DNA of 56,637 nucleotides, counting the filler, from Sphacelaria rigidula (lineage: Eukaryota), in NCBI GenBank assembly GCA_964200075.2. It is 7 parts of 7 records of this genome, joined end to end, with 100 filler letters (N's around TTAATTAATTAA, not from the genome) between each part and the next. Parts side by side here need not be neighbours in the genome. Positions count along the whole stretch, not along the records: positions 48,633 to 56,637 come from CAXNAA020012680.1; 6 more parts are not named here. One strand, 5' to 3'. Each line of letters starts with the position of its first letter. Within the stretch, counting starts at the first letter, position 1. The notes beneath the pieces are model-generated. The model made no database searches and was not told the origin of the DNA. It saw only the letters and a list, made by a program, of their open reading frames with translations. This document shows positions 7,940-56,637 of the stretch, piece after piece. The position numbers and the translations under genes were made by a program.

Positions 7940-7970
<31 letters not shown>

Positions 7971-8190: not shown

Positions 8191-8320
8191 TGCTCCGTCT
8201 CGAAAGGGATGCGTGGTCAATGGTCACACGACTAAGGCAAGCAACAAATGAAAACGCTCCCCCCGAAAGGGATGCGTGGTCAATGGTCAAATGACTAAGG
8301 CAAGCAACAAATGAGTACGC
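8191..8320 (+). repeat. Dispersed repeat family A, two tandem units (GGGATGCGTGGTCAATGGTCAAACGACTAAGGCAAGCAACAAATGAG); other copies 30551-30615 (-) and 46649-46718 (+)
   Basis: Near-identical ~65-bp motif seen in three different contigs. Confidence 0.85.
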
Positions 8321-8364
8321 CCCCCCCCCCCGGGCCTGCGCTGTTTTGTTCTCTTTTTGGCAAG

Positions 8365-9071: not shown

Positions 9072-9574
9072 GTGACAGTTATCGTCCACCGTTTCTCGGC
9101 TCACGCGTGTCCATGTTCCGACTCTAATTGGAGGTTGCTCTCCGTTTCTTCTGCCGAGCAGTGGGTCATGCTACAAGCGGTTCACAAGAACGGACGCGAG
9201 GCAGAGAGAGCCCCCTCTCACGTGACGACGTGCGTGCGAGTCCCCCTAGTCTTTCCAGTGAGACCCCACGGTTTGATGCCACTCTCATGTATCCGATGTA
9301 CTGTGGTATTTGGCACAGCACTTGGCAGCCCCGACTAGCACATTGATCTCTCTACTACTTGCCCAAGCGAGCGCTCAATCATCACATACTTTTTCATCCC
9401 CCCCCCCCCCTCCATACTGCAGATTCATAATCCAGACACCATCGTACGCTGGAAGGTGCTTTCAAGTTGCTTGGCACGGGTCGAAATCTCCGCCTGATCT
9501 GCAACATACTCCTTCGCTCATACTCCCTCTCCCTTCCCCCTCCCTTCCCTGATCCATTTTTCACGTATCCCTAG

Positions 9575-13582: not shown

Positions 13583-15036
13583 AGAGAAACAATAAACGGC
13601 GAAGACGGTTACTTCACCAACGAATGACAAGTGTCACATGTTGTTGATACATGTCTCTGTAGCACTGTTTGTTGCCCAGTGTGGTGGCACTCATCTTCCC
13701 GCTATCCTCTGGAGGCCGCCACTGATCAACGAGATGCGTGAGGCAGAAAGGGTGCAGTGTTTTTGTTGGACACAAGGCAGCCCCCTACCAACGGAGTTCC
13801 GCTTGAAGCAGTCACCCGCAATGATTACTTCTTGCTTTCCACTTTCTCAGCATACCTCCCTAGCCTACGAGTATACTGATTTGTTATTTATGATGATGGT
13901 GATGATGACGACGATGATGATGACAATAATAATAGCAATGTCAATGGTAAGAACAACAGTAAAAATAAAGTTCGATTCTCATGTGGGCAAAAAAGTTCCT
14001 CGTCACTCTCCGTCGGAGGGCCTCTACTATAGACACCTTTCTCTTCGGTCCAAGAACCGCCGCAGCGTTTCATATCATTGCGGAGAAACACGGTGTATAT
14101 TGTCTGTACTGTCTATCTATAGAAAACAAAAGGCCATGGGCAACTCAATCTACCCCAAACGGCTCTAGGCAACAATTCCAACTGGTGGTAACATGATAAT
14201 AGCGCATGCATGACACGGGGGTGTTTGCGACGAAGACCTAGAAGCACCAGCGTTGTGATGGAAGGTTTGGCGCCCCAAATTAACGGTTGCGGCTTTCAAT
14301 CTGACAACGAGGATAAGGCACATGCATGCCGTACGTCATTTGTATCTTAATTATCTTGATGATCAAAATGACATGAAACCGACTACTACGTGTCGGTCCG
14401 GCATGGTCTGGTATGATTTCTCCTATTTTGCCCAAAGCATTCCGAACAACGGCTTGGCCGTTCACAGCGGCTCGGGCGTAGGATCATATCAATACGAGTT
14501 GGGGCGTACTACGTGCTGTCCTAAGCGAGCGATTCTCGGCCAACGTTGCCGTTGTAACGTGCATATAACGGGTTTCAACGTTTGTGGAAACAGGCGTTTC
14601 CCTCCGAATGGGGGATGGGCGAACACCCGTGTTGAAACTAGGTGACAAGGACGGTTTCCTTCTTGTCTTATATTGCGCAGACTCGCCCGCACTGTATAGC
14701 AGACATCCATCTAACCGTGCTAATCCCGATAATCAGTGTTCCCTTGTGCAAGTCAAGTAACGGGGGAGAGATTGGTTGATCCATTGAGGCACGGGCTCGT
14801 CTAGGGGCGGGCTCGTCTAGGGGCGGAAGGGTTTGATTCAAACCGTACGACTGAATATTGATCGTGGTGAGCAGAGTTGCCAATTCTAATGGAAAGCGTT
14901 CTTGATCCGCGAACGCGGGGTGCGTCGTATACCTCTTCACTACCGTTGATATCCATATTCAAGCATTCTGCACTGTACCTTGCCGTTGCTGTGCTGTTGA
15001 CCGTACCCTGCACTGTACACGCGTGTGGCCCACTAG

Positions 15037-15156
15037 ATCGGGCGTTGCCTGTGCAACATCCTGCTTGGTTTCGGGGTAAAGCTTCTCTGCGTGGATGCCA
15101 TGGGAGAGATAGCGGAGCTCACCGAGAGAGGCGCATCGTTTGTAGAACTCGACGAG
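15037..15156 (+). CDS. ldhA: D-lactate dehydrogenase-like (D-isomer 2-hydroxyacid dehydrogenase), internal exon
   Basis: AG|IGRCLCNILLGFGVKLLCVDAMGEIAELTERGASFVELDE|GTCAGT, the segment right after the GxGxxG NAD-binding loop. Not in the ORF track; found by manual translation. Confidence 0.85.
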
Positions 15157-15695
15157 GTCAGTTGCTTTTCAAAACTATGTACTTGATCGAAGTCGTAATG
15201 ATTCGTTTTCGGAACAAGCTCGCAGTCGGTGTTCACAGCGAACTTGAGATATTCCGCAGCGCAACACAACGTCTCCCTTGCAGCACCTAAATGACACATT
15301 GTGATCCTGGATTCATGTTCAGGTTGTGAGCGTTTGTTTAGCTCTATATTTCCGCTGGTTGTTCCACATTTTCGGAGCACTGTGCGTAGGAAGAAGCGGT
15401 GGCTGTTTGGCGTTAGACCTCCTGCAGACTCAAGAGCGTTACTTCTCTTAATACAGCATCAGCTCGTTGTCGTGTGCCGACTCTGTGTTCATTGCCAGTT
15501 TTTTATGCCGATTAAGTTTAGTTGTGATAGTGTTATTTTGCGTACGTAGACTAGTTCCGCACACGCTAGAATTTTCTCGTCGTTATTGAATATGAAGTGC
15601 TTTTCCCGTGTTTATTCAATGCCAGGTTTGGTTGTTGCACTGGTCTTCTTCTTTTCTCAACTGCGTGTTTATGCATCTATCTGACCTTTCTCCAG

Positions 15696-15822
15696 GCGTG
15701 GCGCACAGCAGATGTAATATTCTTGCAGGTTCCTCTCTTTCCGTCTACTCAGCACATGTTCAATGAAGATGTGCTGCCCAAGCTGAAGAAGGGTGTCGCT
15801 CTCATCAACACTTCGAGAGGAG
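15696..15822 (+). CDS. ldhA: D-lactate dehydrogenase-like, next internal exon
   Basis: ctttctccAG|AWRTADVIFLQVPLFPSTQHMFNEDVLPKLKKGVALINTSRG|GTGCG. LINTSRG family signature; in phase with the preceding exon. Confidence 0.88.
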
Positions 15823-17439
15823 GTGCGCGAGATCGTTTTGGTTTCATTTGCACCTTTTGTCCTTGGTTATCACGACTCATTCGATTCCGGTCGTGTTGTC
15901 TGTTACTTGGCGTTGCCGCTTCCAGCGTCTATGCTGTGGGGAAACGGGGAGTGTAGCGGGCACGGGAGAGGCGAGGGGAAGGAAGTAGTCATTGTGTTAC
16001 ATGCCATAGTCGTGAGACCAACAGCCTCGAGGGGGGCGCGCATGGGGAGGGAGGGTGGGGGGAGGGGGGGGGGGCGACTTGACTTCGAGCGTTGGACGAC
16101 GTGTGGGTGTGTNNNNNNNNNNNNNNNNNNNNNNNNNNNNNNNNNNNNNNNNNNNNTTAATTAATTAANNNNNNNNNNNNNNNNNNNNNNNNNNNNNNNN
16201 NNNNNNNNNNNNTGACTGTTGGCCCTATCTGCCACCACAACATTGGACGCAATTTGGCGGTGCAGATAGATGCATTAAGCTCGATTGAGCAAGCATTGCA
16301 GATCATCGTGATATTTCTCTGGTCTTGTTCTTGTCATGGAAGTGTGATGTGCACTGTAGTGCCGAAACTCATGAATATAACTTGACCTTGGCTCCGAAGG
16401 TATGCGAAGAATTAAAGCTTCAACACGAATTTTTCTTCTCTGTATACTTATTATTATTATTATTATTATTATTTTTATTTTTATTCCATGTATGGGATTC
16501 AGTAACCCCCTTCCCCCCCCCCCGAAAACACCTAGGATTGAAAAAATCGGCATAGGGCCTCACATTTTTTGGGGGGGCACTCCTGAGTTAGGCATGCTTT
16601 TTTTCGCGATTTTTGCCGTTTTTCGGGTTTCCAGGGGGTTTCCCTCTGTGTTATGCAAAAGGAGCGAAATATGGTCATTTTGGGTCCGACTGATCGTTTA
16701 TCGGCCATTCGTGCACGCTGGCTTCTGCGCAAACAGGGGGGGGAAAGCAGCGATTCGACAAAAGAAAAAACTAAAAATTAAAATAGATATCGCCTACGGC
16801 ATTGTACGCGGTTTAGGGTCCGTGTGATCATAACGGGCTTAAGTTATGGGATAGAGAAAGTATACACATTATGATCCATGTCGCGAGACCCATTTCTTAT
16901 TTCGGCCGCTTCTGATAGCAAACAAAAATGAAAACCTGGAGAAGCTGTTTGGACCTTCTGCGTCGTTTTACACCCTAGAAGAGGACTTGACGGATTTCGA
17001 CACCTTGGAATGCCTTTGCTACACTCGTACTCGTTGCGACAGTTCAGTTTTTTTTGCCAATTTGGCGCTTTTCTTGGAGACTGTTCGTTTTTCTCGGAGA
17101 TCAGCCTAGCCCAGAAAAAAATCAGAAAAATCCTCTGCGTTTACCCCTGGCCGCATATTTTTTGTACAATCCTGCATTCTTCTCGAAGACCACTACTTTT
17201 TCTCGGAGACTGGTCAAGTCCACAAAAACTTCGGAAACTACCACCTGACCGGGAGTGACCGTTGATTAGGGACATTTTTTTAGCCGGCACCTACGGCTTA
17301 AGTGCGAAGTAGTATTATTACGTGTGTGGTACTGCATGTGGTTTCTGTGTCGGCCATTGTACACATCTGCATACACAGTCATTATAGGCTAACAGCCCTG
17401 AAAATGCACAAGGGATCGCAGGGAAAGGGCCGTTTGGTA

Positions 17440-17605
17440 CCCTTAGACAGCGAGCGTCGCCTCGGAACAGTTTCACAGACTGACAGTCCAGAGACATCCG
17501 TGGGGTTTCCAGGGGGCAGGGGGGGGTGACTCTTGACAGGGGATGGGGGGCCTGCTACCAGAACAGCTGAAAAGCTCACCCGTGCAATCATGTGTGTTTG
17601 GAAAT
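17440..17605 (+). repeat. Dispersed repeat family B beginning CCCTTAGACAGCGAGCGTCGCCTCGGAAC; copies 19347-19506, ~30462-30545, ~55545-55630 (-), stub at 53362
   Basis: Alignable motif gagcgtcgcctcggaacagtttcacaggctgacagtcc.gagacatccg.ggggtttcc in three contigs. Shares its first 9 nt with the piggyBac-like MITE terminus. Confidence 0.75.
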
Positions 17606-17645
17606 ATAACAGATGGAAACTTTGTTCTTGCCTGTGACGGTTTAA

Positions 17646-17743
17646 CCCTTAGACCGCGAGATTAGTCTTTCTGGGTCATGCATACTTTGTTTCACTTGAA
17701 ATTGATGCCGATTCAACAGAAGACTACCCTCGCGGTGTAAGGG
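17646..17743. mobile_element. piggyBac-like MITE (~100 bp)
   Basis: TTAA|CCCTTAGACCGCGAG...CTCGCGGTGTAAGGG|TTAA. CCC/GGG ends with a TTAA TSD are piggyBac hallmarks. Confidence 0.88.
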
Positions 17744-17850
17744 TTAAGATACAACCAACTAGACTAGTGACCAGTCAGCGAAGAGACAACCAACTAGACT
17801 ACTGACCAGTCGGCGCTGACTGGTCAGTAGTCTAGTTGGTTGTCTATTAA

Positions 17851-17947
17851 CCCTTAGACCGCGAGGTTAGTCTTTCTGGATCATGCATATTTTTTTTACT
17901 TGATATTGATGCCGATTCAACAGAAGACTAACCTCGCGGTCTAAGGG
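17851..17947. mobile_element. piggyBac-like MITE, second copy
   Basis: TTAA|CCCTTAGACCGCGAGGTTAGTCTT...AAGACTAACCTCGCGGTCTAAGGG|TTAA. Confidence 0.9.
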
Positions 17948-18235
17948 TTAAACCATCACAAAAGTTAGTCGCTGGTTCGTTTCCCGTCAGACGCACTTTC
18001 TTTGAAGAAAAAAGAGGCGAGAAAACCTCTGTAAAAAATTGTCCCAAAAGAAAAAGGGTGGGGTATAGCATGGTGGCTATGTTTGGAGTGCCCTGCTAGG
18101 GACCCCAGTGCACCCACTCTGGAAATGAGTGGGGGGGACGAGTAACTTTAGGATACGGTGAAAGCGACAACACTAGAGGTCCTGATGGTAGACGATCGAG
18201 CGCTGGCAAGGGGAGTCGCCCTCCTCGGAATGAAA

Positions 18236-32422: not shown

Positions 32423-35400
32423 TGTAAGCTCACAGAGTCGGCGGATCGCGCTGAAGAAGTATCTACGCGATCGAGGGGCATGAGGCCGACAAAAACGTCA
32501 TTGGACACCATCCCTGAAAGTGTGGGAAAAGCACTGTTTTAGGCTGGAACCTCATCTCGGAGTTAAACCTCAATTCGCACAATTTGTTGTCAACTCGAAA
32601 ACATAATAGCCCCCAGCATGGTAAAATTTTTCGTAATGCTTGGTTCACCTAGTGAGTCGTGCGACCATTTCTTGTAGTACTACACCGTTTTCCCCACTAC
32701 AGAGAAAGCCCGCCTTGAGCAAAAATGGACAGGACTACAGATGTCACCGGGCGAATCTCCTTTGTTTTTTCTGAGCAGGGCGAATCCAATTCGCCACAAG
32801 AGACATCATTCGGTACCATAATTTCGCAGACTGATACAAACAGGCACTATGAACGTAGGCTGTCCTCAGAATACGAGATACAGCGTGGCATTCTCCTCGC
32901 TATGTCAGAGATAGATACAGAAACCCTACACCGTACAGTAAAGACTACGCATGCTGAGTTGGAACTGGCAAGGAGTAGGGTGTACTCGTCTAAAAACCAT
33001 GCTTTATTTACCATAGGTCATGATACCTCTGACAGTGACGTATCGGGTAGGCGACGCGGAGGCCGGGGGGGCAGGCGAAACTGCCACTGCCGGGAGTGCG
33101 GCTCTGACCGCAGTGGGAGTTCTACCTCACACCAGCACCCTGACCATGAACGATCAACAAGATTCAATTCCCGATCACATTTCTCATCTCCACATGAGCC
33201 CCACAACAACCACCCCAATCCAACCCCCCAACCCTCATCATCCAATGTTCGCAATTGCAATATATGCCATGATCGAGGTATCGATTACCACACCCGAGGC
33301 AACGGGCGGACTCATGTTGATCGCCGACAAGGCGATCGATATCCTAATCCGAAACAGCGTGCCCCGCATCACGGGGGAAATCACCCCTCCACGTAACCAC
33401 TACCTCAACACCTATACTCACACCAACAACTTCCATCACACAAACAACTTCCATCACACCAACAACCCTCACCACTTCAGTGACTCCCGCCATTCGAGGG
33501 ACTCTCACTCGCGTGCAAACTTTGTACAATGGAGTGAGCCAGCGACTACTGACGAAGCCTTCACCCCACCGGGTAGGGACGGTTTCGACGGTGCTGGATA
33601 TTTCCATTGCGTGCAAAGTCATGAGGTATCATCACACCAAACACTGCCCCTATATCAGCAACAACACCAGCCTACTTCATACAACGCACCATCATACCCT
33701 CACCAATCCCCACAAAACACCTATCGACCTTCCCCACCAATAGACAACTACTCACAGCGACCTTCCCAACAGTACCAACAATCGGACCAGCAGCATTACT
33801 CCTACTACTATCCTAACCCAGGATACAGCCCTCATCACCAAGAATACCAAACCGCAGCCCTACCTTACGACCAACAACAGCAGCATAAGCAGCCGGCAGC
33901 TTCCCCAGCTACATCTGCTCCGCCTGCCGATACGTCCACCTCGGAGCATCCACGACTATATGTGACATTTTCCATGTCAAAAGGCGAGTCTCGGTTTCGG
34001 CTTGGTAATGTCGATTTGCAGGAATATGCTATGATGCATCGTGGGGAGGTGTCGGGGAGAGGTGATGATTTGGAAGAGTGGATACCTGACACCGGGGCCT
34101 CGCACCATACTGCTGGAAGTATGGAGGGGTTGTTTGAGGTGCAAGTTCCCCCTCATGGTGACGAGAATGTGATTGATCGTAGGAGATGGTACTGTACTCC
34201 CAGTAAGAGCGGTTGGTAGCCTCAACCTCAGATTTTTCATGGGACTGACTGACGGGGCTGAGCTCACTAGTTCTTGTGTGAAGCTCACTAACGTTCATGT
34301 GCTTGATGGTATTCACTTCAACCTCTTCTCTCTACATCAGGCACAGTACAAACAGGACAGTACTTTGACTAGAGCAGGCATATCGTTGTTTAACGGGCAA
34401 CTACAATCAGACCGTAATTCGCGTTCATCTTCTCAACTCGCGAAACGTATGCCGCCCACATCGGATGATGCTTCGATTGCAGTCCCCGCCATGTGGAAGC
34501 ATTCTACGAATACTGTGTCTTCGCGTGATACTGCCAGTAACTCCCCGAGTACTGTGTCCTCGCGTGATACTGTCAGTAACCCCCCGAGTACTGTGTCTCT
34601 TCGTATGCTACTGTCAGAAACCCCCCGAATGCTGTCTTCGTGTGCTTCTGTCGGTACAACCCCGACTACTGTAGCGGAATCTACTGCTACAGAGTCTTCG
34701 CGTGCTACTGTGAGAAACCCCCCGAGTACTGTGTCTTCGTGTGATACTGTCAGTAACTCCCCGAGTACGGTGTCTCCACATGATGCTGTCAGAAACCACT
34801 CGAATGCTGTGTACTCGTGTGCTTCTGTCGGTGCAACCCCGACTACCGTAGCGAAATCTACTGCGATGGAGTCTTCGCGTGCTATTGTGCGAAACCCCCC
34901 ATGTGCGGTGTCTTCGCGTTATACTGTCAACGTATCCAGTAGATTTCCCACGGGATTGACTGCTGTTCCAGGTTTGCACTTACCGGATCTACTGCTGTCC
35001 GAGGAGGATGAGATGGCTCAAAGTAGTCCCCCGGCGTTTTTCCCTCGAATGCTGAGCATTCAGGAATTAAGTGGAGCGGAGTTTTTGGATTTGGCGATTG
35101 CAGTTTAGCCCCCGGCCGTCGGCCATCAACTATCGGCGAACCCCAACAAAGGTTGGACATCAACTAGTTTCACGTTTCCCTCAATTCATGCTCACGAAAC
35201 CATTCTTCAAGCAACCGCCGCCCAACGAAGCATTACTCTCACAGGCCAGTCGGCGCCATGTGCAGGATGTGTGGAGTCAAAAGGACGACGCACCGCGATC
35301 CCAAGGTTGAGTACTCGATCACCCACGGTCCTCGGCATCGTATACCTCGACCTCACGGGACCTCACGTGCGGACACCAGGCGGCTCACTATACATGCTCG

Positions 35401-38400
35401 CCTGTGTGGATAGAAAGTCACGTTCCATCATGCTGTGCGGCTTGGCGAGGAAGGCACACGCTTTGGCGAAGGTGAAGGGATACATGACCGCCGTCAATCA
35501 GTTCGGCGTTCCTCGGTTCTTCCGCATCGTCAACGGGGGTGAGTTTCGTTCGCAAGATTTTATCGATTTCTGTGACGATGTACGGATTTGCCGCGAGTAC
35601 ACAGCACCTGACACCCCGAAGCACAACGCTGTGGCCGAGAGCGCGATCTGGCGCATGGTTCAGGCTGGCCACGCTGCGCAATGTGAAGCTCCGCGCCTTT
35701 TCCCCGCTGAAGCATACGCGGACATCCCCGAACTCGACGGCACTTTGAATAGGCTCTGGTTGGGGTCTGCGGTGTGGGCCGCAGGTAGTTTCAACAGCTC
35801 CGCCATGATGGCCAACCCTGGGAAGGTCCCGCCGTACCAGGCCTTCACCGGCCGTGCCCCTCCTCTCCATATCGTTATCTTTCATCAACCTGGAATGACG
35901 AGGGTCCCACGCCGCTTCAAGATGGACCCGCCGGCTGTCACGTTCCACTATCTCCATAACGGCTACAACCATTCCTCGCCAACCGTGAAGGTCATCAAAG
36001 CCTCAACTAGATCCGTTTGCTATACCAACAACGTGGCCTGGACAGTGCCTCGTCTACCACTCGAACTATCAGCGCCGCCCGACGGAAGGCGCGGGGAACA
36101 CGGCAACACCGATACTTCAGCTTCCGCTGCCGCTACACCATACTGCTCCACGACACCATCATCCCGCACCCGGCGCCGCCGTCTACAGCCCGCCGCCGCC
36201 ACGAAACCATACCGTCCCACAACCGCAACCACATGTTGCCGCCGACACACCATACTGCTCCACGACAACATCATCCCGCACCCGGCGCCGCCGTCTACAA
36301 TCCGCCGCCGCCGCCGCGGAACCCTACTTTCCCACAACCGCAACCACATGCCGCCGCCGCCGCCAACTTACCGCCGCCGCCGACACACCCGACTGTTCCA
36401 ACGCCGCGACCTTATTATCCCGTCTCACCACAACCATATTATACTGCTCCGCTGCGACGACACCACAAAATTTTCTATCCCGTCCCGCCGCGACCTTTTC
36501 AACACCTTTCCGCCGCGACATCGACCTTATTATCCCATTTCCCCGCAACCACAACATACCTTGACACTGACACTACACCGCACGACCGTACCACCGGCGA
36601 CATTTACACCGACTCTTGCGGCACATCATACACCACTACGCCACGCCGTCGGTACTTCCATCATCCGTCGCCACGCAACACAAGGAAAACCAGCGCGACA
36701 CACTGCCGACTTAATGACGCGAGCAACCGTATCCGCTGCACAGTCAGCTAACTTCACCCTCGATTTTCACCGGTTCTTCGGCATCATCATCCATTTCGGA
36801 GGCTTCATAATCAGCAACTCATCCTCTACAAGAATGATCTCTATCCTCGTTGCCCGACAAGGTGACGAAGGAGCTGAACCTGAGTAGTGACCCTCGGCAA
36901 CCGGGGAGGACCCGATCGGAGACGGCCCAGCATACAGCCGAGAAGGGGGGGGGCGACAACATTGCACTTGTTTATCATGTGAGGGATCTTTTTGCGCAGC
37001 TTGACAAACCATCCCTTTTATCCACCCACCTCACGCGGCCCGCAATAGAGGCCGGAAGGAAGCGGCACGGCGTTGCGGCAGTGGGGCGCATGGGTTTGCA
37101 ATATCGGACTGCGACTACGATCGCAACGAGGAAGGACATCAACATAGCGATGGAAGAGGAGCGTCTGCCGCATGAACCACGTAAACTTCCCCATCATCCT
37201 GTGAAAGAGTTGGAAACCTCGAAGACATATGCTGAAGCAACACGTCCGGAACAGGGAGGAGAATGGGTGGACTCCATGGCGCGAGAGTTTCAAGACCTGA
37301 AGGAAGCGGGAACCATGGATGCGGTAATACAGCAATCAGTAGATAATATTATTCACGCGAAGTGGGTTTACAACTGGAAGGCTGACGAGTTTGGGTGGCC
37401 AACAAAAGCGAAATCAAGACTGTTCGCAAGTGGAGATCGACAACGGGCAGACATTGACTTTGGTGAATTACAGGCACCCACAGTAGCAGTCTCGAGTGTA
37501 CGGTTGCTAACAGCACTTGCTTGTGAGCAAAATCGTTCTTACGCCATTTTGATATCGAGCAAGCTTTTATGCAGTCCGTGCTGGACGAAGATGTTTTCAT
37601 GCGTTTCCTTCATGGCTATGGTAATTTATCTGGTAAGATAGTGAGACTCAATAAATCGCTCCATGGACTCAGAAAGGCTTCGAGACAATGACATCTTCAT
37701 TTAGGAGGATGCCTGAAGAATCTAGGTTTTGATCATTACTTGGCAGATTCGTGTGTGTTCCGACTGATGGAGGATAACCAGGTTGTTATCAAATTAGTGG
37801 TACATGTAGATAATATCTTTGCCGAAGGGGATGAGGAAAGGTGTGATGGATTTGGTTGGTAAGCAGCTGAACACGATGGCGCCAGTCAAGAATCTAGGAG
37901 AACTGCGGTGGTCGTCGGGTCTATATTACGAGAGAGACTTGGGAAGGGGGACCCTTACTGTATCGCAACGGATGTTTGCAGAGGAGTTGGCGGAGGAGTA
38001 CAATATATAATGAGGGAATAAGACGCCTATGAATGCAGGTGAAAAACTCGAGGAATTTAACGTGGAGTAGTAGATCACGACGTTGGCATTCAGAAAATTG
38101 GTAGGGTCACTCATGTGGCGAGCAAACCAGACCAGACCGGATATTTGTAACGCAGTGAGAGCGGTAGCGAGGTATTGCGCATCACCAAGGTTGATTCACT
38201 GACGTACTGCTCTTGGTATACTTCGATATGTCAGGCGAACGAGTACATTGGGTATTATATTTCGGAGAGGCAGTTTGCAAGGTCTCAGCTTTCAAGCATA
38301 TGCTGATGCAGACTGCGCGAGTAAGGCTGCCGATAGGCCATCAGTATCGAGAGGACTAGTGATGTGCGGGGGTGGATGTGTGTCATGGTTCCCAAGGACG

Positions 38401-48058: not shown

Positions 48059-49828
48059 CTGGAGACGGTGATGGGATGGAAGGATGAAATCGAACAATGC
48101 CCACAAGGGAAGACGATGATTACCGTTTTACTGGCGGTTTGCTTACACATATCGTTAGTTGGACGCTCTGTGCACAGAGAAATCGCAAACAACAGTAAGT
48201 AGCGTCACCGAATAAGAAATATGCCGTGTCTCGCTTGATCGAGCAAGATTGTCGCAACTGGTGGTGAACTGTACCAGAAGCCCTGGGCGAATTGGGGAGC
48301 ATGAAACATACTACTATGCGGCTCAACCTGAATTACTTAAGTAGTGCAGACATTCGAGGGTTGTGCTCGAGTGCCTCCTTACCGCTGGGCACATTACTAG
48401 TGCGTAGTATCAAGAGCATACTGTTGAATAGGTCACCAGCATTCTCTCATGGGGAGTTTCTCCCATGGGGGGTTTCTCCTATGGGGGGGGGGTTGTACTC
48501 ATGATCATGCTTGCCACAGTCGTATGACCATTNNNNNNNNNNNNNNNNNNNNNNNNNNNNNNNNNNNNNNNNNNNNTTAATTAATTAANNNNNNNNNNNN
48601 NNNNNNNNNNNNNNNNNNNNNNNNNNNNNNNNCGAAAGGTGTAGACTGGTGCCCAGAATAAATGGGACGACAACACAACAACACAAACACTCACCACCCA
48701 ACAACATCTCACCCGGCATAGCACACCGTACATGGCAAAAAAAAACAAGGGTCCGTTGATCTCGTGTCTCCGTCCGTACTCATGTTTTGTACTTACCACC
48801 CCAAAACACCCCACCCAGCAATACACACCGTACATACGTAGCAATAAAAACAGGGGTCCGGTGAACTTGTGCCTTCGTACTCATGTTCTTCTGTTCTCAA
48901 ATATGAACCCGCCGACCTGTGTGGTGCTTACGCTGCTACTGCTGTAGAGAAATACTCCTGCCTGCTATCCGCGTACAGCAGCGCAGGCCATCGGGCCGGT
49001 GGACAGTGTTCATACCAAAAAGATCGACCACGGATATTCCTTTCCTCAGCCTGCCAACCACGGTGAGGATATCGACACTCCCGCTACACGACGGAATTGT
49101 GATGATGAGGGCTACCTTGTGCAACAATGACCACAGAGACCCCTCCCCCCACACACACCCACAACAGCTTCCATGTATATCTGCTTCTGAGAACTACAGA
49201 AAAACACACGACGGCTCGACCATATTTCAAGCTATTTCTTCGCGAGAACCGAAAGCCCCCCAAACTGGACGACAGGAGCACGATGATGCTCACGAGGCGG
49301 CTGGCTTATTGTACCCCTTCTTCCGTCCCAGTTCCTCAAGAACGGGAGAAAAGTTGCGCTTAGAAAGGAAGCGGTGATGGCCCAAATGAGCAAAACCTCC
49401 ACGGCTCCTCCGTGCCTCACGTCTTCACCTCGTCTGTCCAGTAGCGACGTCTGTACACAAAAGTCTTTTCAGTATAAATAGGTAACAAAATTCTGGCGCT
49501 CGTCTCGACCTGGCGATGCGTCGAAAGAAGAGGTAGCAGTCGCCCTATCCCTCCTCGCTCCATTTCATGACTACATAATATCACGACAGTACGACCAGAA
49601 TCGGAACCGACGATCATTTGCTGGAAATTCAGCCTCGGATCAAGCCAAACTCGCTCAAACCACTTCGTCAAAAATCCGTGAAAAACATGCGAAAACGACG
49701 GAAAAGCTGACTACATTTTCTCCACCCCTTGTGGTTCACGTACGGTGAAAAATTATTATCAACATGGTTATTTTCGAGGGAAATACATCCGACAATCCTT
49801 GTTCCACGTTTGCGTAATTTTTCAAATA

Positions 49829-50610
49829 TTACTGCATTGCCATCCCCTCCTCTACACCTTTCTTCTTCTGCTCAGTGCCGAAGTACACAGTGATGAGGAA
49901 AGCACACGGCACGAAAACACCGAAGACGGTCGCGAGCGTCGCCGTTCCGCTGTCAGCGATGAGCTCGGTGGGAAGCTGCGTCGCGAGGCTGCTGGATTGG
50001 TCCGCCGCACGAGCGGCGATTGGTGCAAATACGGACGTGGCGACGGCCAGAGCCGCTGCGGGTGCCCTCATCACTGGTGCTGGCGCGGGTGCCCTCATCG
50101 CTGGTGCGGGTGCCCTCATCGCTGGTGCTGGTGCGGGTGCCTTCATTGCTGGTGCTGGTGCGGGTGCCCTCATCGCTGGTGCTGGTGCGGGTGCCCTCAT
50201 CGCTGGTGCTGGCGCGGGTGCCTTCATTGCTGGTGCTGGCGCGGGTGCCTTCATTGCTGGTGCTGGTGCGGGTGCCTTCATCACTGGTGCTGGTGCCTTC
50301 ATCGCTGGTGCTGGCGCGGGTGCCCTCATCGCCGGTGCTGGCGCGGGTGCCCTCATCGCTGGTGCTGGCGCGGGTGCCTTCATTGCTGGTGCTGGTGCGG
50401 GTGCCTTCATTGCTGGTGCTGGCGCGGGTGCCTTCATTGCTGGTGCTGGTGCGGGTGCCTACATCGCTGGTGCTGGTGCGGGTGCCTTCATCGCTGGTGC
50501 TAGCGCGGGTGCCTTCATCGCTGGTGCTGGCGCGGGTGCCCTCATCGCTGGTGCCGGTGCTGGTGCCTTCATCTTAATAGCTGACGACGTCGTCGATGCC
50601 GATACTGTTC
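49829..50610 (-). CDS. psbM: Nuclear-encoded PsbM-like photosystem II subunit precursor (3' exon), with expanded repeat and one in-frame TAG at 50459-50461 (possible pseudogene or assembly error)
   Basis: C-terminal ATLATVFGVFVPCAFLITVYFGTEQKKKG resembles the PsbM helix ([21 protein letters not shown]). It is preceded by a thylakoid-signal-like AAALAVATSVFAPIAARA with an AxA site and a Ser/Thr-rich transit-like GTVSASTTSSAIKM. AG acceptor at 50611-50612. The signal-peptide exon was not found. Confidence 0.72.
50058..50573 (-). repeat. 27-bp coding tandem repeat, ~20 units (M[K/R]APAPAPA), two shortened to 21 bp
   Basis: Direct count of ATG-led units. All length variants are multiples of 3. 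Confidence 0.97.
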
Positions 50611-52508
50611 CTGCTTTTGCACAATTCGGGTCAAGTCGGGATTCAAAGAGTGCTGTTGTTGGGGGCCGGCATTGTGAGCATTATATGATCCGCCTTTGAT
50701 GGCCGTGTCACGAGTTTTGTCGTTGAGAGGGACCAGCTTCAACGGGAATCAATGTTAGGTTCGTCCTAAACTTTCACGGCAAGCTGACCATTGCCAAAAG
50801 CGAAATCGATGCACAGCATAAATATAGGGTTCTCGTCCGGACAACAAGAGAGAGTTACTGGGCAAACTAAAACACAATCTTGCGGTGTTTCAAACAGGGT
50901 GATGGCGAAGACCCACGTGATGAAAATCGTGGGAAAATGAGACCCTCGATTCGAGCAGTTTCCGATACAGTATCAACATCAGTAGGTTAGATGAAATATC
51001 ACGTTGTTCAAGGGTGAAAATATAGATGTACTCGATGCGACACCCCAGTCGATCGACAAAGACCAAGCGTGGACGCGTTGTTCTTTAGTTTTGTGCTGGG
51101 CACTATGGTGGGGTGCTCGTGCTTGATTAAAAACCACGCGGCGTAACACTTGTCAGATGACCCCAAGCCTCATAGTGAAAGCCTTGCCAGCCTGAAAAGG
51201 GCATGGCGGTTGCAGACTCATTGTCACCTCAACTCTGAGAGTTTGGAATCGCAAGGGCATGATGAGTGAAGGTTGGTGCATTTAAGATGTTTCCTCGTTT
51301 TGAGAGCAAACAAAAACCAGGTTTCACTAAACGTTCCGGAGTCATGAAAAATTCAACGCGGTCGGGTGCTTGTACTGAATTTGTATCCATACGCCATTAT
51401 ACTGTTGAATGACCACAATCAACATAGAGCAAGTCGGGTGAGGCTAGAACCGAACCTGTAGGTTGCAGGTCCATTTTCACCTCGACTTCGAGATAAGGGA
51501 TTTTCAATTTGGAATGGGGCATCGCTAGGGCTGTTGAACAAGAGACGTGACGGCGTTGAGAATGTCTCACCCCTCGAGGGCAAAAAAAATACTAAACGTT
51601 CGGAAGTCATGAATCTCAATGACCAACCCTTTTTTTCATCACGCCCTAGCGATTCTCGCACATGCCCTCGCAATTTCCCGTGATAATTCCGAAAAATGAC
51701 CCCAGAAACGAAGTTTGAGGGTCGAGCAAGTTTACGCCCGTGTGAACCACCATACCGAATCAACATTAGGGCATGACTTGGAACAAACGCACAATCAACG
51801 AGAAAAGTTGGCCGAGGCTGTTTAGCACATGGGTATCTTCCTTTTGATGAGGTGTGCTCATCACGGACCAAGTCGTTTGGGTCGATAAAATATGGCCGAG
51901 AGAGCTCAACTCCAGTTTCATGGCTTGCGCAGCTCGACGATACTTTTCCATCATCCCGGATACTTATCAGATGAAACGCGTTTCATTCGTTCTGTCCCTC
52001 GGACCCTTTGCTTCGTGTTTTGTGTGTGTCCCGCTCCCGTCATGTCGGGTCATGTTCGGTACCTGGCGACAACGCAACAAGTACCAGGGCGTGGCATTGT
52101 CCGACAAGTCATGACTGAAGAATGTCAAACCTGCCTCAGACCTCAGCGATTTCCACTGGAGCGGGCCGAAGCGGGTTCCAGGGATCGAACAGCTTTCGGC
52201 GCATTAGCCACTATGCACACTCCGCATCCAAGAGCTCGAAGCAGTTGGATGAGGTTAACATGCTCAAAAAGACAAGACACGAACCACCGTAGCCGAAGCA
52301 AGAGACAACAGAAGAAATAGTCGGGAATGTAGGCAGTCCATCTATTCTCCCTGTAGGCTATCGCAGTGGGGTCGTGTCCTTTCACAAAATTTCGAGTCGT
52401 GACCGTGCGGTGGAATCGAATTGATCGTACACAGGTTGTATCTGATACGTCCACGACGTTTTTTGTCAGATGGCTCCCAAGTCTTCTCAATAGCTAGAAG
52501 TATCTCAA

Positions 52509-52693
52509 ACTCGGCGCCCGGTATCCTGGTTTGTTTTGTATTTTTTTTTCAAGTGAAAGTGATGGCGATTCATCAGATTATGAGACCCTTCGACCGCCAG
52601 GTCAGGTCCTCATGTGAATCGCGATCACTTTCACTTGAAAATACAATACACAAGCCAGAGCCAGCGAATAAACCAGGACACCGGAAGCCGAGT
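52509..52693. repeat. Imperfect foldback
   Basis: actcggcgcccggtatcctggttt...ttttcaagtgaaagtgatggcgattca pairs with tgaatcgcgatcactttcacttgaaaa...aaaccaggacaccggaagccgagt. Confidence 0.75.
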
Positions 52694-53859
52694 ACCTCTA
52701 ATAATTATCTGCGCTTGACGTACGATAAAAAAACTGAAAAGCTTGGCTTCTTCGATCGAGAAAAGACGGTGGAAAAGCTTGAAGAGGCGTTTGACTCGCG
52801 TCCTGCCGAGAAATCATGCCCGATACCACTATTTCACAGGATCATGCGAACCCCACACGGTTTGGTCACACCACCGATCTATCGCCACCACGTACATGAC
52901 TCGAGCACGGGATACAAACGAGTGGTAGGGAAAAGACACATGGCACTACGTGCTCATTTTTTGTTGGTGGAAACTCGGGCATCTGATTCTCTGACGCGGA
53001 GTCCAGCGATGGAACTGCGCCGGCGACCGAATTGCGTACACGCTTGTAGACAGTAAAGACGGGACAAATCTGCACGTTCGAATATTATTCACGTTCTCCC
53101 AGCTACAGACAGCCCTGTGCGATCTATACTTCATATTGCCCGATTATTTTTCACATCCCTGCATGCTGTACGAAAGACGCTCGTGTACGCAGTTACAGAG
53201 AGCGCAGTACCGTCTATACTGATTACAAGTGAACCAAGTACCACTCCGCCTATTCCACCGTCACTCTATCGAAAGCGTGTAAATTCACTTCGACCCTAAC
53301 ATGGTCAAACAAGCGGTTTCAATTTCGCCGCATCAACTTGTTCGAGTCCAAAATATGTGAACCCTTAGACAGCGACCCCCCCGCTGGTAGACTGAGGTAG
53401 ACACTACAATTTTTGGGTTCAGAATCATTCCGTTGTCACAACTCGAAACGTCTACTCTACGGCCGAAGGGACCGGGAGTGCGTAAGAGGCACATAGTTGT
53501 GAGAGAGTCATAACACAGACGGTGGTGTAGTAGTCAAACACCCGGATATTACGCCTCATATTTTTACTGTACAGTCTGCAGCGTACTGGGTCTTACAGTG
53601 TTTCACGCGCCGAGTGTACGCGGCGTGCGTCTGGAAATCGTACCACGACTACCGCCGCGAACGCCCCTGACCACCATAGAGCAAGTGCTCGGCGATGGCG
53701 GTCGCCTCACCGTCAAGTACTTGTCTACATCTACGTTCGTAGGATACTCGTGGCCGCCGCTCGTGTGTTGCGCCATGACGCTATATACAAGATGGGGGTG
53801 TGGAGCTAGTAGCATGCTCAGGCGGTACTGAACACAGACACCAGCTTTGTTATATAATC

Positions 53860-54924
53860 CAGGGATGTGTACGGAGGACAATCCGCTCCGCGGTACGTTT
53901 TTTTTTCGAAAACTCACGGAGCGGCGCGGCTATCCGTTTGTGTGTAAAATTACGGATCATGACGGAGCGGATATCCGTCAATGAAAATGTCACGGGTATT
54001 GCGGAGCGGATATCCGCCAACGAAATTGTCACGGTGCGGTGCGGATTTTTCGAATGTGGTACGGACCGGATATCCGCCAGTGGGAAAAGTCACGCATTTT
54101 CACGGAGCGGATATCCGCCCGCTACAAATGCACGGATTATTGTGTAGCGGATATCCATGACATTGATTCTTTCACAGAGCGGTCGCCCTCCGTGGAACGA
54201 ACCGCACGAACCGCGGCAGTTCCACGCGGTGCACCGTGGCAGTAACCCGTGTACCGATACGGTTATCCGCGAAAAATGTAAGGATGTGCGCGGATGAGTA
54301 CCAAAAATACGAAAGGAGTTGTTTTGCTTTGACTTTCAGGTGCTGGACAGGGGGGACGGCGGATTGAATTGCGCACATATATATAAGCTCGAATTCCTGG
54401 AGAGAATAATGAGCAGTACACATTTGAATTTCCTACAAGACAGGGTGACGGGGGGCGGGGTGGGAGACGCGCAACAGCAGCAGCGCTTGACGCAGGACTA
54501 AGGCTATCCACCACAAGAAAAAGCATGGAATACATTCCTCCAGAATGACGTCCATAGCAGCACAGTAGCTCTCAACTGAATGGGAGATTTTGTTGTTAGA
54601 TATCCGTAAGTAATGCCACGGAGGACGCACGGATCACCTACGGAGTGGATAAAACCGCACCGTGGAAACCCGCGTTTCACGGTTCCAACGGCGCAGCTGT
54701 AATCTTTACGGAGCGGAGCGTTTTTTTCAATTGTCACGGAGTGGAGCGGATATCCGTACATGAAAAAATTCACGGATTATTGCGGAGCGGATATCCGTCG
54801 ACGAAAATGTCACGGTGCGGAGCGGATATCCGCCCCCTACAAGTGCCACGGAGCGGTGCGGATTGACAAAGCGCACCGTAATAATCCGCTCCGTGGATTT
54901 ATTCTTCATCCGTGCACATCCTTG
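53860..54924. mobile_element. Non-autonomous hAT-like DNA transposon (1065 bp)
   Basis: Exact 8-bp TSD atataatc (53852-53859 and 54925-54932). TIR cagggatgtgtacgga vs caaggatgtgcacgga (Ac-like CAGGGATG start). Many subterminal CGGAGCGGATATCCG repeats at both ends. Confidence 0.92.
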
Positions 54925-55347
54925 ATATAATCTATGGTTGATATGGGATTGTCAAGATCTTCGATTCTGTGTTCGAGAAGAATCGAGCTTTTGTGCAGAA
55001 GCTTATGGGAATTTTCCAGATCTGAATTGCGGTTTGAGTATCTTGAAGTTATTTTGGAAAAGACGTGATGTGATCGAGTGCGTGAGTCAGTTCCGAGCCT
55101 CAGCTCCATTGTGTAGGAAGCAGCCGAGATACAAGGGCAAGTGCAAGTACGATTAAGCGACAAAAGTGGTGAGGTATGGAGTGATGACCCCGAATGTGCG
55201 AGTTACGGGATACGAGCGTCGCGACTATCAGCGAGTTACAACATTTCGAACCGCTGCTGAAGTTCGTGCGTCCCGAGTGTTTCCGAATTTCTTGTTTGCA
55301 GTTCTCACGGCTCCCACCAACATGCGGCGAGGGTAGACGGCGAATGC

Positions 55348-55425
55348 GTCCACCAGGTGTCTACCTCTACCGGAACAAAAGTGCTCATTTCGACGACTGT
55401 GATTGGTCAGAATGGTCATCCCACG
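55348..55425 (+). repeat. Dispersed repeat shared with contig 3 (~18535-18610, minus strand)
   Basis: ggaacaaaagtgctcatttcga...attggtcagaatggtca matches the reverse complement of 18539-18584. Confidence 0.6.
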
Positions 55426-56637
55426 CCTCTCGGGCCTCGTGCACGGATCATAACTTTTCGCAAGAAACTTCCAAATACACATGGTTGACTCTGTGAGCTC
55501 CCCCTATTCTCCGCGGAGAGACGCCCCCCCCTCAAAAACCACCTCCCCCCGAGCCCTGGAAACCCCCGGATGTCTCGGGACTGTCAGCCTGTACAACTAT
55601 TCCGAGGCGACGCTCGTCGTCCAATGATTAACCAGACACCTCGTGAGTCCTCACTTAGTTGCGTGTAAAACGCACGTCTAAATTTTCAGCTCAACCCTAT
55701 GGGAACCCTTCCCTCCCGTCCTCAGGCTAGACGCCTCATTATTTCCAAGCCGACGAGAGAATGAGAGGTGTAAAGAGAAAAGACCGACGGCAGCATTTCC
55801 ACGGCGGAGGGCTACAGAAGAATCCACCAACATACCTCATGCGAGCTTCAACAATGTCACCTCGATGCAGTCAAAAAATTCTTGCACGGTTAGGACAAAT
55901 CATCACGACTCAAAATCAACAATTTACGATTTCTTCTGCCTGATTTTGGCTTCGTGCATAAACTCGAACAAACTCACGAGTTGGCACCAGCCGTCCATTG
56001 TCTCTAGACTCGAGCATTTTCTCTAGACTGAGTCCCGTGCGGCACTGGGGCACCTCTAATCGAGTATACTTACGCTCAAGGATTGTAACAGTTAACCTGC
56101 CTGGATGCAAGGGATATTGATATTGAGATTGGATCATGACTTACGGCTTCATGACCCCCGCCCACTACATACGTGTTAACTGTACACCGCAAGTCATCGG
56201 CATAAGGATAAGCAGAATTCATGACGGTAGCTCCTTTTGTCTTTCCAGGGCCCACCTGGGTTTAGTGCCTTGTGAAAATGACCACATTGTAGCATGTACA
56301 CTCCTTCCCGATTTTTTCTGGTCCACCCTGTGGTAGTATCAAGTACTGCATTTCAGTAAAGAATTGGGACCCAAAAAACACTCCGGAAAAACTCGGGAAC
56401 GCTATACTAGGTGGGCTTATCCGGGCTGGGGATGGGGCCTCCACACGATCTTTGCAGTGACATCGCACTAGACTACAATTTCCGCGATGGTCGTTCGGGT
56501 CTGGTCGATAAACTTCGCCTCGCCGTGGTTGGGCAGGTCACTCGAAGGCTTTTTTCAATAATTTCACGGAAAGCTACGAGCTGGGCCAGCCTAGAGGCTG
56601 CATGAACGTTTGCAGGCGGATGCGCCGGCCAATACTT

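What the first reader, a model, noticed from the sequence alone, without database searches (positions are those of the whole stretch)
49829..50610. PsbM-like precursor with ~20 ATG-led (M[K/R]APAPAPA) repeats in its targeting presequence and a stop inside the array
Seen: a ~515-bp in-frame array sits between a Ser/Thr-rich transit-like segment and an AxA thylakoid-signal-like segment. One unit has AAG>TAG (50459-50461), and 15 in-frame ATGs follow it. Known: PsbM is a ~35-aa single-helix PSII subunit that is nuclear-encoded with a cleavable presequence in red-lineage algae. Inference: this is either a functional precursor with a ~170-aa Pro/Ala spacer that import tolerates (the stop being a consensus error in a repeat), or a paralog where the stop uncouples the signal peptide while downstream ATGs could still initiate a differently targeted product. 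Repeat slippage could gain or lose the stop, giving a possible VNTR on/off switch.
Basis: partly seen in the sequence, partly recalled or inferred. Interest (0 to 1): 0.72.

Follow-up and report, generated by a model that had tools for sequence, protein, structure and literature searches.

The report
Spare psbM gene with repeat-expanded presequence
A brown-alga nuclear genome holds a second, weakly transcribed copy of the small photosystem II gene psbM whose plastid-targeting leader has been lengthened by about twenty in-frame 27-base repeats and is cut by a stop codon, while an ordinary, very highly expressed copy elsewhere most likely does the work.

Summary
On the minus strand, 49829-50610 reads S/T-rich segment, 20 ATG-led M[K/R]APAPAPA units (27-bp array 50058-50573, 19.6 copies), AxA-type hydrophobic segment, one-helix protein, TAA. 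TAG sits at 50459-50461 and 15 in-frame ATGs follow it in the array. PsbM identity is supported: a profile of the brown-algal relatives hits only PsbM chains in the PDB (11 of 11, best E 1.3e-8). Pfam stays below its cut-off.

New here: this is a second copy. The closest protein, from Sphacelaria rigidula (127 aa), has a normal signal peptide and one MKAPSPAAA unit where the window has the array. Contigs of four public runs carry that canonical version beside the window's. In the two RNA-like runs its depth is 7,866-18,172, against 140-152 for the window-specific 3' contig and about 5-10 background.

The window copy has no recognisable signal-peptide exon within 6 kb upstream. All six amino-acid differences from the canonical copy are derived on its side.

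Best reading: a young, transcribed, probably non-functional paralog with a coding minisatellite. The TAG could not be checked in reads. The switch idea has no support. Interest is modest.

The parts
49829..49831 (-). TAA stop codon of the psbM-like frame
49832..50002 (-). Mature PsbM-like domain (DQSSSLATQLPTELIADSGTATLATVFGVFVPCAFLITVYFGTEQKKKGVEEGMAMQ) with one hydrophobic helix
   Evidence: Pfam PF05151 E 6.5e-4, 19.9 bits, below the cut-off of 24. phmmer against the PDB: the top 16 hits are all PsbM chains, best 8iwh_M at E 2.3e-4. Family profile against the PDB: 11 of 11 hits are PsbM, best E 1.3e-8. 91% identical to P0001.
50003..50071 (-). Last ATG-led unit running into the hydrophobic, AxA-ended thylakoid-signal-like segment (MRAPAAALAVATSVFAPIAARAA)
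   Evidence: Translation. Aligns to PAAALAVATSVFAPIASRAA of P0001 and to the A-rich segment of all 20 relatives. Its role as a thylakoid signal is inferred from its form, not tested.
50058..50573 (-). 27-bp coding minisatellite, 19.6 copies, reading M[K/R]APAPAPA. It is an expansion of the single MKAPSPAAA segment of the canonical precursor.
   Evidence: for the array. for the single-copy counterpart in P0001. A loose end at 50063 in X4 and X6 shows the canonical mRNA leaving the window's sequence exactly where the array begins (table 7).
50459..50461 (-). In-frame TAG in unit 5, where the other units have AAG or AGG
   Evidence: Not verified in reads: one search lists no row at this place, which is no proof either way.
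50573..50610 (-). S/T-rich 13-codon segment (GTVSASTTSSAIK) ahead of the array, with no similarity to the GKFSRELTLQ of P0001
50611..50613 (-). Possible splice acceptor (CAG|GA, phase 1)
   Evidence: Read from the sequence. Only a weak hint comes from the X4 contig that starts at 50584 at depth 5.65 (table 8). No joint is listed.
49049..49828 (-). 3' flank, the likely 3' UTR, specific to the window copy
   Evidence: An identical 824-nt contig 49049-49872 is present in X1, X7 (1 other letter) and X6, and as a longer contig in X4. Its depth is 73.4 and 31.7 in the DNA-like runs, and 140.5 and 152.5 in the RNA-like runs, against about 5-10 for neighbouring contigs (tables 2 and 8). The strand of this RNA is not known.

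Best explanation
The window comes from a brown alga, either Sphacelaria rigidula or a very close relative, judging by the label of the nearest protein. Positions 49829-50610 (minus strand) hold a second, recently duplicated copy of the nuclear psbM gene.

In the canonical copy the precursor has four parts. First comes an ER signal peptide ending ...GSA|FVAP. Then come a short transit peptide, one MKAPSPAAA segment, a hydrophobic AxA-ended thylakoid signal, and the one-helix PsbM. In the window copy, the 27 bases encoding that one segment have been amplified to 20 units. The likely mechanism is replication slippage or unequal exchange (inferred). This adds about 170 Pro/Ala/Lys/Arg residues between the transit part and the thylakoid signal.

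As assembled, the copy has an in-frame TAG in unit 5 and no recognisable signal-peptide exon within 6 kb upstream. Similarity to the canonical protein begins only at the repeat unit. Two substitutions sit at otherwise conserved helix positions.

At least its 3' part, and probably the array, is transcribed at roughly 1-2% of the canonical copy's level. I think it most likely makes no plastid-imported PsbM, because a heterokont plastid protein needs the signal peptide (established knowledge). On this reading it is a young, decaying or dead-on-arrival partial duplicate that carries a coding minisatellite.

Shown: the array, the frame, the TAG in the assembly, PsbM homology, a second canonical version in the reads, and the depth contrast. 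Inferred: the expansion mechanism, loss of function, and a partial duplication.
For: - Homologs are brown-algal PsbM precursors. There were 20 hits at E<=0.01 among 31 candidates. The best is P0001 (S. rigidula, 127 aa, 91% identity, E 6e-36).
- P0001 carries MAFKAFFVLVALCMVALGSAFVAP... and a single MKAPSPAAAVPAAALAVATSVF.
-, table 3: all four laid runs have a contig over 49886-49931 with other letters, and three of the four (X1, X4, X6, not X7) also at 49983 and 50014. By my codon mapping, 49924 A>G gives F>L, 49929 G>A gives T>I, 49983 G>A gives A>V and 50014 C>A gives A>S. 49886 and 49931 are silent. The four changes are exactly the residues of P0001.
- In X1 both versions stand at 49983 at 61.8 of 124.7 summed depth, so about 62 each. 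Single-copy contigs there have 55.8-75.3.
- X7 differs from the window by 1-4 letters per contig, so it is another genotype. It also shows both versions.
- RNA-like runs X4 and X6: the canonical version has depth 7,866-18,172. The window-specific contig 49049-49872 has 140.5 and 152.5. The array bin 50110-50371 has 205 and 226. 50634-50895 has 5.65 and 0 (tables 2, 3, 8).
- Table 7: the loose end at 50063 (X4, X6) reads, on the minus strand, AAAV before PAAAL, as in P0001. The canonical mRNA therefore lacks the array.
- No exon encoding MAFK.../FVAP was found. tblastn with 5 precursors at E<=100 gave no credible minus-strand hit upstream. Seven motif patterns gave 0 matches above position 45000 in any frame. 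ORF and donor scans gave only one signal-peptide-like ORF, at 52341-52281. It has no F at +1 and a poor donor, and lies in contigs at background RNA depth.
- All 6 amino-acid differences from P0001 after the array are derived in the window copy, judged against the 19 other relatives. One is T for the I that the other 20 share.
Against: - The mature domain keeps every column that is invariant in the 21-sequence alignment (30 columns). There is no frameshift. The copy is therefore not visibly degraded apart from the TAG.
- The window-specific 3' contig is about 20 times above background in RNA-like runs, so the locus is not silent.
- The TAG rests on the assembly alone.
- An upstream exon could lie beyond the window end (56637) or be too diverged to recognise. 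The region 52468-56637 is high-copy repeat, where contig evidence is useless.
- The count of 4 replacement and 2 silent differences in 49843-50063 is too small to show relaxed selection. It may also be incomplete, because 130 rows of table 3 were not shown.
- The kind of runs X4 and X6 is only guessed as RNA by the tool. I infer RNA from the >1000-fold depth contrasts.
Confidence: 0.6

Rival explanations
1. This is a functional minor psbM paralog. The TAG is an assembly error or a strain-specific lesion. A diverged or distant exon 1 supplies the signal peptide. The roughly 170-residue basic Pro/Ala spacer is tolerated by import across four membranes and by thylakoid insertion, and is then cleaved off with the presequence.
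For: - The mature domain keeps all 30 invariant columns.
- The locus-specific 3' contig is at 140-152 depth in RNA-like runs, against 5-10 background. The array bin is at 205-226, whereas in the DNA-like runs the array bin is no deeper than single-copy sequence (76 and 28).
- A CAG acceptor in a phase that gives Gly sits where P0001 has Gly.
- Both short units are 21 nt, so the frame is kept.
- The unit's composition (K/R, P, A, no acidic residue) fits what transit peptides are known to tolerate (general knowledge, not tested here).
Against: - No signal-peptide exon was found in 6 kb upstream.
- No joint from 50610 appears among those listed, and the contig 50584-50966 is at background depth.
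- The TAG is present in the assembly.
- Keeping the frame is expected anyway. The unit is built of GCN-CCN hexamers, so slippage steps are multiples of 3.
- All six replacements are on this copy's branch.
- Expression is about 1-2% of the canonical copy.
Confidence: 0.2
2. Internal initiation gives a differently routed product. Translation from an ATG after the TAG, for instance the last one at 50071, would yield MRAPAAALAVATSVFAPIAARA|ADQ... Its N-terminus itself resembles a signal peptide. That would send a PsbM-like peptide into the ER or chloroplast-ER lumen rather than into the thylakoid.
For: Fifteen in-frame ATGs follow the TAG in the array. The last unit is followed directly by a hydrophobic AxA segment. 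Transcripts covering the 3' part exist.
Against: Nothing was tested directly. After such a cleavage the +1 residue would be A, not F, so plastid import is not expected by the heterokont rule (recalled knowledge). No relative with such an architecture was found. A PsbM helix outside PSII has no known role.
Confidence: 0.07
3. This is a VNTR on/off switch. Gain or loss of units by slippage removes or restores the TAG-bearing unit and toggles expression of this paralog.
For: Only the form supports it: a tandem array with a single stop-bearing unit.
Against: No length variation could be measured, because contigs do not span the array. The canonical copy supplies PsbM at about 50-100 times higher RNA depth, so a switch would control little. 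No signal-peptide exon was found.
Confidence: 0.03
4. The two versions are alleles (haplotypes) of one locus rather than two loci.
For: The depths of the two versions in X1 are equal, about 62 each. P0001 lies on a short contig of 8,578 bases, as a haplotig might.
Against: - Each version's depth equals that of surrounding single-copy contigs (55.8-75.3), not half of it.
- Both versions occur in a second genotype, X7.
- The 3' flank of the other version is laid only at 90-95% likeness with indels (table 4: 49724, 49825).
- The protein sequences upstream of the repeat unit are unrelated.
Confidence: 0.08

Closest known systems
Canonical PsbM precursor of Sphacelaria rigidula (P0001, 127 aa) and its brown-algal orthologs (Ectocarpus, Pylaiella, Undaria and others, 125-129 aa)
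   Same: The mature domain is 91% identical over the aligned part. The AAALAVATSVFAPIA[A/S]RAA thylakoid-signal-like segment is the same. The MKAP... unit sits at the same place.
   Different: The canonical form has one unit and a signal peptide with ...SA|FVAP. The window copy has 20 units, a TAG, an unrelated 13 residues ahead of the array, and no signal-peptide exon found. Six derived replacements are present.
Nuclear-encoded PsbM of diatoms seen in solved PSII structures (6j3y_M 131 aa, 8iwh_M 113 aa)
   Same: Homologous over the lumenal extension, the helix and the basic C-terminus. Profile E-values are 1.3e-8 and 1.9e-8, and the residue alignment is. The deposited chains are far longer than the 33-38 aa typical of plastid-encoded PsbM, a size given in passages of PMC3017763. 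PSBM is listed among diatom genes in PMC3592843 (one passage seen).
   Different: No tandem array occurs in any of the 26 relatives found by the exhaustive profile search. Pfam's PsbM model scores the brown-algal form below its cut-off.
Coding minisatellites (VNTRs) inside genes, and young duplicate genes that decay (general genetics, recalled, not from a call)
   Same: Head-to-tail units whose length is a multiple of three, variation mostly at third positions and K/R, and one unit with a nonsense change. An intact, expressed paralog sits beside a weakly expressed copy.
   Different: Here the array sits in a cleavable organelle-targeting presequence. I found no description of that in print with one search (12 of 234 listed, none on this) and passages of PMC7456531. 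That is a thin search.
Plant PsbW, the 'PSII 6.1 kDa protein'
   Same: UniRef gives this name to the Ectocarpus ortholog P0004. Both are one-helix PSII subunits made with a bipartite presequence (recalled).
   Different: Sequence searches point to PsbM, not PsbW. Pfam at E<=10 returned only PF05151. All 11 PDB profile hits are PsbM chains. The UniRef name looks like a mislabel.

Membership tests
PsbM (Pfam PF05151) | Score at or above Pfam's curated gathering cut-off (24 bits) | tested here: not met
   19.9 bits, E 6.5e-4, for the last 60 aa. 17.6 bits for the 209-aa ORF. Only 2 of 21 brown-algal family members reach E<=0.01 and none reaches the cut-off. The Pfam model, not this copy, is the limit.
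PsbM (Pfam PF05151) | Sequence homology to PsbM subunits seen in solved PSII structures | tested here: met
   Single sequence: the top 16 of 30 listed hits are PsbM chains, best E 2.3e-4. Family profile A1: 11 of 11 hits at E<=0.01 are PsbM chains, best 1.3e-8.
PsbM (Pfam PF05151) | One transmembrane helix followed by a short basic C-terminus | tested here: met
   TATLATVFGVFVPCAFLITVYF then GTEQKKKG aligns residue by residue with the helix region of 8iwh_M, 8xr6_M and 6j3y_M. No topology predictor was run.
PsbM (Pfam PF05151) | Physical presence in photosystem II | not testable with these tools
   Needs proteomics with copy-specific peptides.
Heterokont bipartite plastid-targeting presequence | N-terminal ER signal peptide with aromatic residue (F) at +1 of the cleavage site | tested here: not met
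   Present in P0001 and 8 other full-length relatives. Not found in the window. An exon beyond 56637 cannot be excluded.
Heterokont bipartite plastid-targeting presequence | Basic, acid-free, hydroxylated or Ala-rich transit part followed by a hydrophobic AxA thylakoid signal | tested here: met
   GTVSASTTSSAIK, then the K/R-P-A array, then AAALAVATSVFAPIAARA|A. This is read from the translation. Function is inferred.
Pseudogene or decaying duplicate | Intact, expressed paralog elsewhere in the same genome | tested here: met
   The canonical version is in all 4 laid runs. Its RNA-like depth is 7,866-18,172, and it equals P0001 at the four replacement sites.
Pseudogene or decaying duplicate | Disabling lesion (premature stop, missing exon) | tested here: inconclusive
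   The TAG is in the assembly but is not confirmed in reads (one search lists no row there). Exon 1 was not found but could lie outside the window.
Pseudogene or decaying duplicate | No transcripts | tested here: not met
   The window-specific 3' contig is at 140.5 and 152.5 in RNA-like runs, against about 5-10 for neighbours. The strand is unknown.
VNTR contingency switch | Array length, or the stop-bearing unit, varies between individuals and changes expression | not testable with these tools
   All runs were kept as contigs that do not span the array. This needs long reads or PCR.

The most novel reading that the evidence does not exclude
The array-bearing copy is a working minor psbM gene. 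An undetected upstream exon supplies the signal peptide, and the TAG is absent or polymorphic in nature. The precursor then carries a roughly 170-residue Pro/Ala/Lys spacer between transit peptide and thylakoid signal. That would be a natural demonstration that import across four plastid membranes, followed by thylakoid insertion, tolerates a several-fold lengthened and fast-evolving presequence. Slippage would sometimes switch the paralog off.
Probability: 0.12. Interest if true: 0.6.

Novelty: new variant of a known kind. Interest (0 to 1): 0.3.

Why it matters
If it is only a decaying duplicate, it matters little. It is then an annotated example of how a minisatellite can arise inside a targeting peptide, plus a warning that the Ectocarpus ortholog's name 'PSII 6.1 kDa protein' is probably a mislabel for PsbM.

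If the copy turned out to be functional, it would be a ready-made natural series (1 versus 20 units). That series could test how presequence length and composition affect import into complex plastids and thylakoid insertion of one-helix subunits.

Tried and rejected
- **Whole genome.** None is held for this window. A genome-wide count of psbM copies was therefore impossible.
- **Run listing.** No RNA holder is listed on record. Four runs are only guessed to be RNA.
- **The TAG in reads.** One search lists no other letter at 50459-50461. However, 130 rows were not shown and contigs may not cover the place. No conclusion follows.
- **Splicing.** No joint from about 50610 is among the 15 joints listed (104 not shown), and no loose end is listed there (1450 not shown). 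This is only weak evidence.
- **X4 contig start.** The X4 contig starts at 50584. I noted it as a possible graph branch at a splice site and did not rely on it.
- **Parts without RNA cover.** 50634-51157 has depth 0 in X6. I report this here only.
- **Exon-1 hunts**. The one signal-peptide-like ORF (52341-52281, MDCLHSRLFLLLSLASATVV) was rejected. It has no F at +1 and a poor donor TTC|GTGTCT. It also lies inside unbroken contigs at background RNA depth of 7.9 and 8.7.
- **Plus-strand ORF** 49818-50699 (GAGAGAFIA repeats). It has no Pfam family at E<=1 and no homology support. Rejected as the coding frame.
- **Array-bearing relatives.** None was found (2 hits; 3 hits among 8000 scored candidates, one of them a fungal Pro/Ala-rich protein) or (26 hits). 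In one search, P0023 (2156 aa) is an unrelated repeat protein on inspection. P0045 (3916 aa, E 7.4e-4) was not inspected, and I take it to be unrelated too from its length and weak score. P0030 (255 aa) looks like a light-harvesting-protein fragment fused to PsbM in a gene model, with no tandem array.
- **Metagenome scan.** It gave one weak 19-residue match (L001), which was not used.
- **Earlier findings of this scan.** Nothing was found.
- **Selection test on array units.** Dropped. The third codon positions of the minus frame coincide with those of the open plus frame, and many changes are at CpG. The pattern therefore cannot tell selection from mutation bias.
- **Literature on repeats in transit peptides.** One search and passages of one paper turned up nothing relevant.

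Full report
**1. What is in the sequence**

Tandem Repeats Finder reports one array at 50058-50573, with period 27, 19.6 copies, 89% matches and score 745. The consensus unit occurs 19 times with up to 3 mismatches, all within 50058-50558. None of 100 shuffles gave a match.

Read on the minus strand in the frame that ends with TAA at 49829-49831, the region gives AKAGTVSASTTSSAIK, then the units, then MRAPAAALAVATSVFAPIAARAADQSSSLATQLPTELIADSGTATLATVFGVFVPCAFLITVYFGTEQKKKGVEEGMAMQ.

Parsing by codons gives 17 units of 27 nt, 2 units of 21 nt and the terminal MRAP. That makes 20 ATG-led units. Unit 5 is ATG TAG, with the TAG at 50459-50461. Five in-frame ATGs precede the stop and 15 follow it in the array.

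An open frame is no argument here, since all six frames run open through most or all of the array. The unit is built of GCN-CCN hexamers, so slippage steps are multiples of three by construction.

**2. What the protein is**

The last 60 residues hit only Pfam PsbM (E 6.5e-4, 19.9 bits), which is below the curated 24 bits. Against PDB sequences the top 16 hits are all PsbM chains. The best are diatom chains of 113 and 131 residues, and the alignments cover the N-terminal extension, the helix and the basic tail.

The large protein collection returned 20 relatives at E<=0.01 among 31 candidates. The best is P0001 (Sphacelaria rigidula, 127 aa, 91% identity).

A profile of 21 sequences (A1) hits 11 PDB sequences at E<=0.01. 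All are PsbM, with best E-values of 1.3e-8 and 1.9e-8. Pfam's model recognises only 2 of the 21 members even at E<=0.01, so the sub-threshold Pfam score reflects the model.

UniRef calls the Ectocarpus ortholog 'PSII 6.1 kDa protein'. From memory that is the plant name for PsbW, and the searches here do not support it.

Passages of PMC3017763 describe nuclear psbM in a dinoflagellate and its similarity to cryptophyte homologs, and give 33-38 aa as the usual size. One passage of PMC3592843 lists PSBM among Phaeodactylum genes.

**3. Where the array sits**

Full-length brown-algal precursors read MAFKAF.VL.ALC.V.L.S.FVAP..., a heterokont signal peptide with F after the cleavage site. A short basic stretch, an Ala-rich hydrophobic segment ending A-x-A and the mature protein follow.

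P0001 has ...RHGKFSRELTLQ-MKAPSPAAA-VPAAALAVATSVFAPIASRAADQ.... The window has ...GTVSASTTSSAIK-(M[K/R]APAPAPA)n-MRAPAAALAVATSVFAPIAARAADQ....

The array is therefore an expansion of one nine-codon segment at the junction of the transit part and the thylakoid-signal-like part.

**4. The decisive addition: a second, canonical copy**

Nine listed runs hold the stretch. I laid four of them on 48800-56637: X1, X7, X4 and X6, from 3 studies. All are kept as contigs.

- Every run has the contig 49049-49872 matching the window. X1, X4 and X6 show 0 other letters and X7 shows 1.
- That contig ends at 49872, which is 30 bases past 49842. Position 49842 is the middle base of the codon where the window has M and P0001 has K. 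Unique sequence ends there and sequence shared with another copy begins.
- All four runs carry other letters over 49886-49931 (49886 C>T, 49924 A>G, 49929 G>A, 49931 C>T). X1, X4 and X6 also carry 49983 G>A and 50014 C>A. X7 shows only the window's letters at those two places.
- Mapped onto codons, two of these are silent. The other four give F>L, T>I, A>V and A>S, which are exactly P0001's residues.
- In X1 the two versions stand at about 62 each at 49983 (61.8 of 124.7). Single-copy contigs there have 55.8-75.3.
- X7 is a different genotype, with 1-4 differences per contig, and also shows both versions.

I read this as two loci rather than two alleles, but I could not align the two contigs to prove it.

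**5. Expression**

X4 and X6 are only guessed to be RNA by the tool. Their depth ranges from 0-10 over most of the stretch to more than 10,000 over the gene, which only RNA would give (my inference).

| Feature | Depth in X4 / X6 |
|---|---|
| Canonical version | 7,866-18,172 (tables 2, 3) |
| Window-specific 3' contig | 140.5 / 152.5 (tables 2, 8) |
| Array bin 50110-50371 | 205 / 226 (table 2) |
| Contig 50584-50966 (X4) / bin 50634-50895 (X6) | 5.65 / 0 (tables 8, 2) |

- In the DNA-like runs the array bin is no deeper than single-copy sequence (76 and 28).
- A loose end at 50063 in both runs reads AAAV ahead of PAAAL on the minus strand, as in P0001. The abundant mRNA therefore has no array (table 7).
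- The window copy's 3' part, and probably its array, are thus in RNA at about 1-2% of the canonical level.
- The strand, the 5' end and the splicing are not shown by contigs.

**6. Is the window copy whole?**

- tblastn with five full-length precursors at E<=100 gave no credible minus-strand match to the signal-peptide exon.
- Seven motif patterns gave no match above 45000 in any frame.
- Scans for ATG-led hydrophobic ORFs, and for phase-1 donors preceded by an ATG-led ORF, gave one signal-peptide-like candidate (52341-52281). It lacks F at +1, has a poor donor and lies in contigs at background RNA depth.
- The 13 residues ahead of the array are unrelated to P0001's, so similarity begins at the repeat unit.
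- From 52468 onward the upstream region is very high-copy repeat, with depth 1e4-1e5 in the DNA-like runs.
- A partial duplication, or an exon beyond 56637, both remain possible.

**7. Constraint**

The window copy keeps all 30 invariant columns of A1. However, all six residues by which it differs from P0001 after the array are derived on its side, judged against the other 19 sequences. One is T for an I that the other 20 share, and another is F where the others have V, L or I.

Four replacement and two silent differences are listed in 49843-50063. These numbers are too few for a rate test, and the table was cut.

**8. Relatives with arrays**

None was found.

- 2 hits in the 114-366 aa range.
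- 3 hits among 8000 scored candidates.
- an exhaustive profile search of 1.84 billion representatives gave 26 hits at E<=0.001, with lengths of 77-255 aa apart from two very long proteins. P0023 is an unrelated repeat protein. P0045 was not inspected.
- The 255-aa hit looks like a fused gene model.
- The window's own ORF did not appear as a catalogued protein.

**9. Verdict**

The locus is a second copy beside an intact, array-less, dominant psbM.

The most likely reading (0.6) is a young, transcribed but non-functional duplicate carrying a coding minisatellite in its presequence. A functional minor paralog with a tolerated spacer (0.2) is not excluded. It hinges on two checks I could not make: reads at the TAG and the 5' end of the transcript. 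The on/off switch has no evidence.

The novelty is a new variant of a known kind, and the interest is modest.

Noticed in passing
window 52468-52729 and 53254-56637: Very high-copy repeats. Summed contig depth is 1e4-4e5 in the DNA-like runs, against about 70 for single-copy sequence, with many joints and loose ends. This is probably transposon debris starting about 1.9 kb upstream of the psbM-like copy.
   Followed up: partly
window 35109-37641 (+): A copia-type retrotransposon fragment. The integrase core (rve) scores E 8.4e-7, just below Pfam's cut-off. RVT_2 scores E 1.2e-11, above its cut-off.
   Followed up: no
window 8295-9338 (+): An ORF piece matching Pfam UVB_sens_prot (PF04884), E 9.5e-10, above its cut-off. 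It is probably an exon of a RUS-family gene.
   Followed up: no
P0004 (Ectocarpus siliculosus ortholog): UniRef names this PsbM ortholog 'PSII 6.1 kDa protein'. From memory that name belongs to plant PsbW. The PDB and Pfam searches here point to PsbM only, so it is probably a database mislabel.
   Followed up: partly
window 51934-51972: X1, X4 and X6 carry a contig with six other letters within 40 bases, while X7 shows none (table 3). It looks like a second, diverged copy of this stretch laid at 90% likeness.
   Followed up: no
P0023 (2156 aa): A long bacterial-type repeat protein scored E 3.3e-18 against the brown-algal PsbM precursor profile, through seven repeats of ...SDQQALLSE.DIALVSDNGKGTLAV.... 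The resemblance to DQSS.L.QLPTELIADNGTATLAIV looks coincidental. It is a caution for profile searches with short presequence-bearing proteins.
   Followed up: partly
window 50058-50573: The K/R pattern of the units (K R K K * K K K R R K K K K R R K R R R) suggests a higher-order repeat of about six units: K K K R R, then a short unit, seen twice. That would fit growth by unequal exchange of blocks.
   Followed up: partly
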